Source of the DNA: Eledone cirrhosa
Lineage: Eukaryota
Assembly: GCA_964016885.1 (NCBI GenBank)
Contig: OZ024747.1
Span: forward strand, 11,780,001 to 11,844,000
Direction of reading: 5' to 3'
Length of the DNA: 64,000 nucleotides
Shown here in pieces: positions 24,991 to 25,776 of this stretch. The notes under the pieces are model-generated. The model had not been told where the DNA came from. It made no database searches and worked only from the letters and a program-made list of their open reading frames with translations. Numbering within the stretch: the stretch's first letter is position 1; each line of letters begins with the position of its first letter. The translations under genes and the position numbers were made by a program.

Positions 24991-25261
24991 ACATATATAT
25001 AAATATATATACACATATACATATATATATATATACACATATACATATATATATACACATATACATATATATATATATACACATATACATATATATAAAT
25101 ATATATATTGTTTATACTTTGGGAGGGTCATGTTGCAATAAGAAACACACGCACCAGTTGCTTTCACTTCAATTAATTTATTATATATTTATAAATTTAC
25201 AAATTTATAATTTCTGGTTGGTTGGTTGGTTCCACAACCAGATAGTTGTTTATATATATAT

Positions 25262-25306
25262 AGTCATAGTTCTTTCGTCACACACTCTGTGACCTCTTCA
25301 GTGACT
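25262..25306 (-). ncRNA. Minimal type-I hammerhead ribozyme (mirror copy)
   Basis: Exact reverse complement of 25435-25479. Confidence 0.8.
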
Positions 25307-25434
25307 GGGGATTTCTTTCTTCGTTTCTGTGCCTTTCCTTTCTTCTATCCTACGCCATTTGTTGTGTGTGACACACAAACAAAATGGCGTAGGATAGAAG
25401 AAGGGAAAGGCACAGAAACGAAGAAAGAAATCCC

Positions 25435-25479
25435 AGTCACTGAAGAGGTCACAGAGTGTGTGACGAAAGAACTATGACT
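25435..25479 (+). ncRNA. Minimal type-I hammerhead ribozyme
   Basis: AGTCA-CTGAAGA-G-GTCACA(GAGTG)TGTGAC-GAAA-G(AA)CTA^TGACT: 5-bp stem I, intact core, 6-bp stem II, CUA cleavage triplet. Confidence 0.8.
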
Positions 25480-25776
25480 ATATATATATAAACAACTATC
25501 TGGTTGTGGAACAACCAACCAACCAGAAATTTATAAATTTGTAAATTTATAAATATGTTTCTTATTGGCAACATGACCCTCCAAAGTATAACAATATCGG
25601 TTTCAACACACGATTTCAGATAAAGAATCTTGCTAAACAAATTCAGAAACGAAATAAATATATATATATATATATTAATATATATATATATATACACATA
25701 TACAATAATATACATATAAATATATCCATACATATATATATATATATACACATATACATATATAAATATATATATA

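What the first reader, a model, noticed from the sequence alone, without database searches (positions are those of the whole stretch)
25107..25640. Spacerless fold-back element with a hammerhead ribozyme on each strand
Seen: two ~185-bp arms meet with essentially no loop at TGTGTGT-G-ACACACA (~25370). Each arm carries an identical intact core: CUGAAGA, 6-bp stem II, GAAA, CUA^, 5-bp stem I. Known: Penelope-like elements (PLEs) carry minimal type-I hammerheads in their pLTRs and form inverted pLTR structures. Inference: a non-coding, recently formed PLE derivative. In a transcript from either strand the antisense arm comes first and could sequester the ribozyme, switching between self-cleavage and a long dsRNA (ADAR or Dicer substrate).
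Basis: partly seen in the sequence, partly recalled or inferred. Interest (0 to 1): 0.78.

Follow-up and report, generated by a model that had tools for sequence, protein, structure and literature searches.

The report
Fold-back stub of a Penelope retroelement
The hairpin is one of about a thousand mirror-image stubs of a young Penelope-type jumping gene in this genome, a known kind of insertion, and the extra G at its centre is likely the copied cap of the element's RNA, which would mean that these stubs were made from capped RNA that the ribozyme had not cut.

Summary
The hairpin and both minimal type-I hammerhead motifs are there. It is not a special element. Each arm is the end module (pLTR) of a young Penelope-like retrotransposon with an intact 1,263-aa RT plus GIY-YIG ORF elsewhere. 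The hammerhead has 3,819 exact copies, and 1,057 similar fold-back junctions exist. Head-to-head pLTRs, a one-sided tail and opposite-strand hammerhead pairs are published PLE anatomy, and this scan found such hairpins before in other genomes.

The switch idea is not supported: in a read-through RNA from either strand the ribozyme stems have pairing probability 0.

What may be new: fold points cluster 45-66 bases upstream of the hammerhead, between NRF1-like and YY1-like motifs, and arm starts carry a non-family G (42 of 53 and 83 of 95). That fits a copied cap at the transcription start, so a sense, uncut template. Arms share alleles, yet the untailed arm is often the longer or G-bearing one, which favours priming from both target strands over simple snap-back. 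No RNA data; the mechanism is inferred.

The parts
25105..25369 (-). Left arm: pLTR copy without tail, ends 26 bases after the ORF start codon
25370..25370 (+). Single G at the fold point, where full-length copies have C; likely the copied RNA cap
25371..25597 (+). Right arm: pLTR copy with a private 38-base deletion between 25555 and 25556
25598..25655 (+). One-sided PLE tail; it is the continuation of the ORF's first codons
25435..25479 (+). Minimal type-I hammerhead motif, predicted cut after 25474
25262..25306 (-). Identical minimal type-I hammerhead motif on the minus strand
25380..25389 (+). YY1-like motif just downstream of the inferred transcription start (an older subfamily has the first 10 letters of the human consensus)
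   Evidence: consensus from PMC13017510
25573..25575 (+). Start codon of the parent ORF; frame broken right after by a one-base loss in this copy (minus-strand twin at 25131)
25148..25185 (-). 38-base family segment present in the left arm only
25095..25108 (+). Candidate target-site duplication, left copy (8-14 bases, overlaps the element end, inside (TA)n)
   Evidence: read from sequence printed
25654..25667 (+). Candidate target-site duplication, right copy
   Evidence: read from sequence printed

Best explanation
The hairpin is a dead, minimal insertion of a young endonuclease-bearing Penelope-like retrotransposon: two head-to-head copies of its pLTR, likely made from a short, capped, sense RNA that its hammerhead had not cut, and likely joined when two cDNAs primed from the two nicked target strands met at the cap. 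Shown: family identity, copy number, one-sided tail, (TA)n target, clustered fold points, excess G, shared alleles between arms. Inferred: the pLTR promoter starts RNA at several C-A steps 45-66 bases upstream of the hammerhead; the element's protein nicks both strands of a (TA)n site; one nick primes cDNA at the tail site (about +84 to +93 from the start codon) and the other at +26; both run to the RNA 5' end, where the cap is copied as an extra base; the two cDNA 3' ends are joined through 0-2 bases of pairing or an end-to-end jump; fill-in yields the palindrome. The copy has lost the upstream promoter motifs and has no regulatory role; if a neighbouring transcript reads through it, it would give a constitutive dsRNA. 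Confidence by step: PLE insertion unit 0.97; cap and start site about 0.75; priming from both strands about 0.55.
For: Parent: locus L054 holds an intact 1,263-aa ORF that starts at the same ATG as the arms and ends 3' in the same pLTR; RT motifs, CX4CxxC linker and C-terminal GIY-YIG motifs; best fold match is telomerase RT, E 5e-8; head-to-tail units 4,423 bases apart. Anatomy: 39 of 39 inverted pairs have one arm ending at +24..26 and the other at +84..93; in a second, overlapping set 40 of 47 have one tail, 0 two, 7 none detected. Hotspot: 11 of 22 head-to-head pairs among the first 100 listed hammerheads are under 200 bases apart; 53 and 95 arm starts at two hotspot positions against 0 and 2 at two control C-A steps and at most 5 of 7 matches at the hammerhead cut site. 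Cap sign: preceding base G 42, T 8, A 3 of 53, and G 83, T 12 of 95 (counted by eye); P 3e-11 and 3e-23 against a blunt-join null of 0.38; 4 of 4 one-base inserts are G; five loci have the G on both arms, two with no spacer. Untemplated G is read as a copied cap for L1 and SVA (PMC3287187). NRF1-like motif 17 bases upstream and YY1-like motif just downstream fit promoter geometry. Both-strand priming: the G arm is the untailed one in 6 of 18, the longer arm is untailed in 5 of 12 short microhomology joins and 10 of 21 long pairs, by up to 2.3 kb (by eye); a copy of a cDNA cannot exceed it. The anole PLE protein cuts and extends both strands, has two RT start sites that bound the tail, and uses uncut RNA (PMC11167929).
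Against: No RNA data: no start site, cap or transcript was observed. Many Gs can also be read as the complement of the partner arm's first C; two internal blunt junctions far from the hotspot show the same pattern (L059, L101), and the control sites gave only 2 starts, so G specificity to the hotspot is weakly controlled. Copies are not fully independent and the null is crude. In two junctions (L109, L113) the G arm is shorter than its partner, which one RNA cannot give if the G is a cap. Allele sharing between arms (3 of 621 discordant against 5,024 of 22,995 between pairs) fits snap-back equally well, or gene conversion, or assembly smoothing. The window copy itself is discordant at one family-polymorphic site (25403). 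Later deletions at palindrome centres could randomise which arm is longer. The promoter motifs are human consensus sequences applied to a mollusc-like host.
Confidence: 0.58

Rival explanations
1. Same element and same capped template, but one cDNA primed at the tail folds back on itself at the RNA 5' end and primes its own second strand; the endonuclease trims the copy at +26, and later deletions blur the centre.
For: Arms share alleles. 15 of 47 junctions are microhomology joins, most of which can be drawn as small loops. The G arm is the tailed one in 12 of 18. Endonuclease resolution of the tail is suggested in PMC8557442.
Against: G on the untailed arm in 6 of 18, untailed arm longer in 10 of 21 long pairs; zero- and one-base loops are hard to prime in cis.
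Confidence: 0.22
2. The hotspot is not a transcription start but an RT stop or RNA processing site, and the G comes from the enzyme's habit of adding a C at any end.
For: No transcript data. G also precedes two internal blunt joins. Earlier scan notes place starts in other families at the hammerhead edge (unchecked).
Against: No single-base G insert among 22 junctions away from the hotspot; starts fall on A after C in 19 of 25 G-preceded arms; promoter-like motifs flank the hotspot.
Confidence: 0.12
3. Inversions arise by self-priming on an antisense RNA, as proposed for rotifer Penelope elements.
For: Proposed in the Discussion of PMC3846280 from junction palindromes.
Against: An antisense template gives no reason for a G at the sense 5' end on either or both arms, nor for starts between promoter-like motifs of the sense strand.
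Confidence: 0.04
4. One reading: the hairpin is kept because read-through RNA toggles between self-cleavage and a long dsRNA for ADAR or Dicer.
For: A read-through RNA folds at about -360 kcal/mol. Inverted Penelope copies gave siRNAs in transformed flies (PMC3681739). Transcripts starting at the centre would carry a free hammerhead.
Against: Ribozyme stems have probability 0 in the full RNA of both strands; 1,057 like copies, nearly all examined ones in (TA)n; the copy has a deletion and a broken start; lone minimal hammerheads did not cleave in vitro (PMC4209133).
Confidence: 0.02
5. Assembly fold-back artefact.
For: One-base homopolymer differences between the arms, which reads of the family correct, point to imperfect polishing; a 200-base gap lies 400 bases away; the junction was not seen in raw reads of this locus.
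Against: Flanks are not mirror images; only one arm has the tail, only one the 38-base block; the asymmetry follows the family rule in 39 of 39 pairs.
Confidence: 0.02

Closest known systems
Insertion units of canonical EN+ Penelope-like elements (PMC8557442, PMC3846280, PMC11167929)
   Same: 5'-truncated copy with an adjoining inverted copy, tail on one end only, pLTR holding the hammerhead and the first codons of the ORF, AT-rich target, RT followed by GIY-YIG.
   Different: Both arms are minimal and start at a sharp hotspot with an extra G; the tail is about 58 bases rather than 30-40; the hammerhead lies about 100 bases before the start codon, not over it as in the anole element.
Neptune / Nematis clades of PLEs
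   Same: C-terminal GIY-YIG preceded by a CX2-5CxxC linker; (TA)n targeting.
   Different: No tree with reference elements was built, so the clade is assigned by motif only; the ORF has an asparagine-rich stretch near its N-terminus.
Dual minimal hammerheads on opposite strands in Schistosoma PLE fragments (PMC4209133)
   Same: Two minimal type-I motifs 100-700 bases apart on opposite strands; 4-5 bp stem I, long stem II, extra base before stem II.
   Different: Here helix III has a 2-bp stem with a non-palindromic 2-base loop.
Non-LTR retrozymes (bioRxiv 10.64898/2026.07.22.740005)
   Same: Short, non-coding, type-I hammerhead, related to PLE pLTRs.
   Different: Retrozymes are head-to-tail arrays of hammerhead units; this is a head-to-head pair whose ends are not the cut site.
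L1 / SVA full-length insertions with a cap-derived G, and L1 twin priming (the latter recalled)
   Same: Extra G at the 5' end; inversion proposed to come from priming at both target nicks.
   Different: In L1 inversions the two parts cover different stretches of the RNA; here both arms cover the same stretch.

Membership tests
Canonical EN+ Penelope-like element | Single ORF with telomerase-related RT | tested here: met
   1,263-aa ORF in L054; RT motifs; model's best structural match is telomerase RT, E 5e-8, TM about 0.35. Pfam found no family for it.
Canonical EN+ Penelope-like element | C-terminal GIY-YIG endonuclease with CCHH motif | tested here: met
   Motif match only: GIY-like and YIG-like boxes with two cysteines between them, paired histidines and the terminal LNxKxE; no profile or fold hit for this domain.
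Canonical EN+ Penelope-like element | pLTR formed by tandem arrangement and containing the ORF start | tested here: met
   L054 has the ORF start region at both ends; 4,423-base tandem spacing.
Canonical EN+ Penelope-like element | Adjoining inverted 5'-truncated copy and tail at one end | tested here: met
   39 of 39 pairs; 40 of 47.
Canonical EN+ Penelope-like element | Hammerhead motif in the pLTR | tested here: met
   subfamily changes fall on loop 2, loop 3, the free base at the cut site and the last stem I pair, not on invariant core bases (196 of 216 arms aligned). No compensatory pair changes were seen.
Neptune / Nematis clade | CX2-5CxxC linker before the endonuclease | tested here: met
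   Residues 1137-1145 of P0001; definition from PMC8557442.
Neptune / Nematis clade | Placement in RT phylogeny with reference elements | not tested
   No named reference PLE proteins were in hand.
Active hammerhead ribozyme | Self-cleavage at the NUH site | not testable with these tools
   Needs in vitro or 2',3'-cyclic-phosphate sequencing data; at most 5 copies start at the cut site.
Non-LTR retrozyme | Head-to-tail short units each with a hammerhead | tested here: not met
   The window has one head-to-head pair; the 3 same-strand neighbours among 100 listed copies are 2.6-4.4 kb apart.
Naiad | N-terminal endonuclease and no hammerhead | tested here: not met
   Endonuclease is C-terminal and a hammerhead is present.

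The most novel reading that the evidence does not exclude
The centres of these hairpins record how Penelope-like elements make their inverted ends: the protein primes two cDNAs from both strands of the target on capped, sense, ribozyme-uncut RNA started at a YY1/NRF1-type promoter in the pLTR, copies the cap, and joins the two cDNA ends head to head. This would settle the sense-versus-antisense template question, show that hammerhead cleavage removes RNA from the insertion pathway instead of feeding it, and make short promoter-to-tail transcripts a steady source of about a thousand perfect-hairpin loci in an octopus-like genome.
Probability: 0.45. Interest if true: 0.62.

Novelty: new member of a known kind. 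Interest (0 to 1): 0.38.

Why it matters
As an object it is ordinary: a truncated Penelope-like insertion of a published form. Its use is as evidence. How PLEs make tandem and inverted ends is stated as open in PMC8557442 and PMC3846280, and the anole in vitro system (PMC11167929) can now test it. A family with over a thousand dated-by-divergence junctions gives sharp predictions: capped starts at named positions, an extra base that depends on the cap, and hairpins that need both target nicks. If read through, such loci would also be a large pool of perfect dsRNA for editing or small-RNA pathways, which is untested here.

Tried and rejected
Rfam: no hammerhead family hit in 23000-28000 or on the single arm; only sub-threshold microRNA hairpin matches. 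Pfam: no family for the parent ORF; a relative gave a weak RVT_1 match, E 0.004. PDB by sequence: nothing for the single protein; the 33-sequence profile gave two bacterial defence RTs, E 4e-5 and 0.0065. A first pattern search for sequence beyond the tail returned only insertion flanks in the 20 loci fetched of 244 matches; the parent was found from the other side. No RNA holder listed; this says nothing on expression. Reads of three other samples and one contig set hold the family but cannot isolate this locus or its junction, because the stretch is palindromic and high-copy; whether family junctions stand in raw reads remains open. One search merged loci by mistake and one search used a shifted anchor; both were replaced. 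Rejected: a hairpin that moves as its own unit (junctions vary widely, and one identical junction occurs on different haplotypes); retrozyme; Naiad; start at the ribozyme cut site. No host gene was identified around the hairpin; the ORF list was not annotated.

Full report
Observation. The window holds a near-perfect inverted repeat centred on one G at 25370. The left arm (25105-25369) and right arm (25371-25597) differ by one substitution in the first 185 bases, eight one-base indels over their whole length and a 38-base block missing from the right arm; the right arm continues for about 58 more bases. Both arms carry the same minimal type-I hammerhead motif, with 5-bp stem I, 6-bp stem II, an extra base before stem II and a predicted cut after 25474. 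This matches the minimal motif described for metazoan PLEs in PMC4209133 (parts 1-2 of 4 of the text read), which also reports such motifs in pairs 100-700 bases apart on opposite strands. Rfam has no hit for it. Both ends abut (TA)n, with a candidate 8-14-base target duplication (sequence).

Family. The window lies in a 3.0-Gb genome. A search with the right arm gave 2,164 candidates, 40 scored, mostly 94-99% identical over the first 185 bases. The 46-base hammerhead has 3,819 exact copies, reversed control 0. Longer copies run 5' into coding sequence, and locus L054 has an intact 1,263-aa ORF whose start codon is the ATG inside each arm and whose 3' end leads into the same pLTR. It has RT motifs, a CX4CxxC linker and C-terminal GIY-YIG motifs; a model of the last 643 residues (pLDDT 82) matches telomerase RT best. 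The nearest named protein is from Octopus vulgaris at 69% identity, so the host is likely an octopus or relative. By the motif definitions in PMC8557442 (passages) this is a Neptune- or Nematis-type element; no tree was built.

Anatomy of insertions. Among the first 100 listed hammerhead copies, 27 neighbours lie within 7 kb: 22 head-to-head, 3 tandem, 2 tail-to-tail; 11 of the 22 are under 200 bases apart. In 39 of 39 head-to-head pairs held at that point, one arm ends 24-26 bases after the start codon and the other at 84-93 (sample drawn from best matches and contig C1). This is the published inverted copy plus one-sided tail (PMC8557442; PMC3846280, passages and Discussion), and the anole study shows that the two ends are two RT start sites inside the ORF (PMC11167929, parts 1-2 of 4). 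Arms of one pair share family alleles: 3 of 621 polymorphic cells differ, against 5,024 of 22,995 between pairs. The window copy is one of the three exceptions. Non-mirror flanks and the rule-following asymmetry make an assembly artefact unlikely, though reads from other samples show that several one-base differences in the window arms are errors or private changes, and they cannot isolate this locus.

The fold point. Short arms start 45-66 bases upstream of the hammerhead, and 1,057 junctions genome-wide, across subfamilies, fall in this stretch. I parsed 47 of the 49 distinct places listed: 15 microhomology joins, 14 blunt joins (12 with G before an arm start), 18 with inserts, of which all 4 one-base inserts are G in the sense of one arm. 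Genome-wide, arms that start where the window's right arm starts are preceded by G in 42, T in 8 and A in 3 of 53 (C excluded by the pattern). Ten bases downstream it is G in 83 and T in 12 of 95 (A and C excluded); about 20 of these Gs cannot come from the partner arm, and five loci have G on both arms, with spacers of 0, 0, 2, 4 and 5 bases. These counts were made by eye. A null of blunt joins in this AC-rich stretch expects G in 38%, giving P 3e-11 and 3e-23, with the caveat that copies are not independent. Two control C-A steps had 0 and 2 starts, neither with G, and the ribozyme cut site had 7 matches, 2 of them one-base deletions in long copies (this pattern needs an exact (TA)n length and undercounts). 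An untemplated G at the 5' end is read as a copied cap for L1 and SVA (PMC3287187, passages). In full-length copies an NRF1-like motif ends 17 bases upstream and a YY1-like motif follows the starts; 451 copies of an older subfamily match the first 10 letters of the human YY1 consensus. Consensus sequences and YY1's position just after the start site come from PMC13017510 (passages). I infer that the fold point is the capped start of a pLTR transcript, 104 bases before the cut site, so the template was sense and uncut. Against this: many Gs are also the complement of the partner's first C, two internal blunt joins show the same, two G arms are shorter than their partners, and no RNA was seen.

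How the second arm is made. Snap-back of one tail-primed cDNA predicts that the tailed arm is always the longer, cap-bearing one. It is not: the G arm is untailed in 6 of 18, the longer arm is untailed in 5 of 12 short microhomology joins, and in 10 of 21 simple junctions among 25 further loci, by up to 2.3 kb (two compound junctions and two loci with no junction in view left out). Priming from both nicked strands at the two RT start sites, followed by joining of the cDNA ends, explains one tail, either arm longer and zero-base loops, and fits a protein that cuts and extends both strands. Later deletions at palindrome centres could rescue snap-back for the length data but not easily for G on untailed arms. 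Allele sharing then needs both cDNAs to copy one RNA or RNAs of one source locus. I put this step at about 0.55.

The switch. In an RNA that crosses the whole hairpin, on either strand, both ribozyme stems have pairing probability 0; in a single arm stem II stays formed and stem I ranges from 0.15 to 0.9 with the 3' end chosen. A read-through RNA would therefore be plain dsRNA. That inverted Penelope copies can yield siRNA is published (PMC3681739, passages). Nothing here points to selection on this copy. Within the family, subfamily changes avoid the invariant core, which suggests the motif matters to the element, not to the hairpin.

What is known. The structure is known. I found no statement of a cap-derived G at PLE inversion junctions or of priming from both strands as their cause in searches of the held library; most subscription papers are outside it, supplements were not read (Fig. 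S2 of PMC11167929 may bear on 5' ends), and the retrozyme preprint was read only in part 1 of 5. Earlier notes of this scan describe like hairpins in other genomes and starts near the hammerhead edge (unchecked, consulted after my reading was formed); two further look-ups found nothing.

Verdict. A real, young, ordinary Penelope-like insertion; the switch reading is not supported. Interest 0.38, carried by the junction signature, which makes an open question on PLE replication directly testable.

Noticed in passing
window 18235-19954: A second, larger palindrome (834-base arms, 98% complementary, (TA)n at the centre, extra tail on the left arm only). It belongs to another high-copy family (1,253 candidates); one copy runs into a frameshifted ORF with RT and C-terminal GIY-YIG motifs (L179), so it is a second PLE family. 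No clear hammerhead core was found in its arm.
   Followed up: partly
window 57910-57858, minus strand: A third, more canonical type-I hammerhead-like motif (CUGAUGA, 4-bp stem II, GAAA, short helix III with 4-base loop), about 50 bases upstream of a (TA)n tract. No Rfam hammerhead hit. Probably the end of another PLE or a retrozyme.
   Followed up: partly
L054 2446-6237 (P0001 residues 262-335): The parent ORF has a stretch that is 49% asparagine, like the N-rich inserts reported for rotifer Penelope ORFs in PMC3846280; frameshifts in other copies fall in or near it.
   Followed up: no
protein P0080: An Octopus vulgaris gene model named as a dynein regulatory complex subunit isoform contains a piece 83% identical to 17% of the query region: an exonised or mis-annotated PLE fragment.
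   Followed up: no
L024, L096, L100, L056 junctions: Long inverted pairs often carry 12-35-base inserts at the junction, several of them copied from nearby element sequence, a sign of repeated template jumps during joining.
   Followed up: no
window 24507-24706: A 200-base assembly gap 400 bases left of the hairpin; the window is otherwise dense in minisatellites and microsatellites.
   Followed up: no
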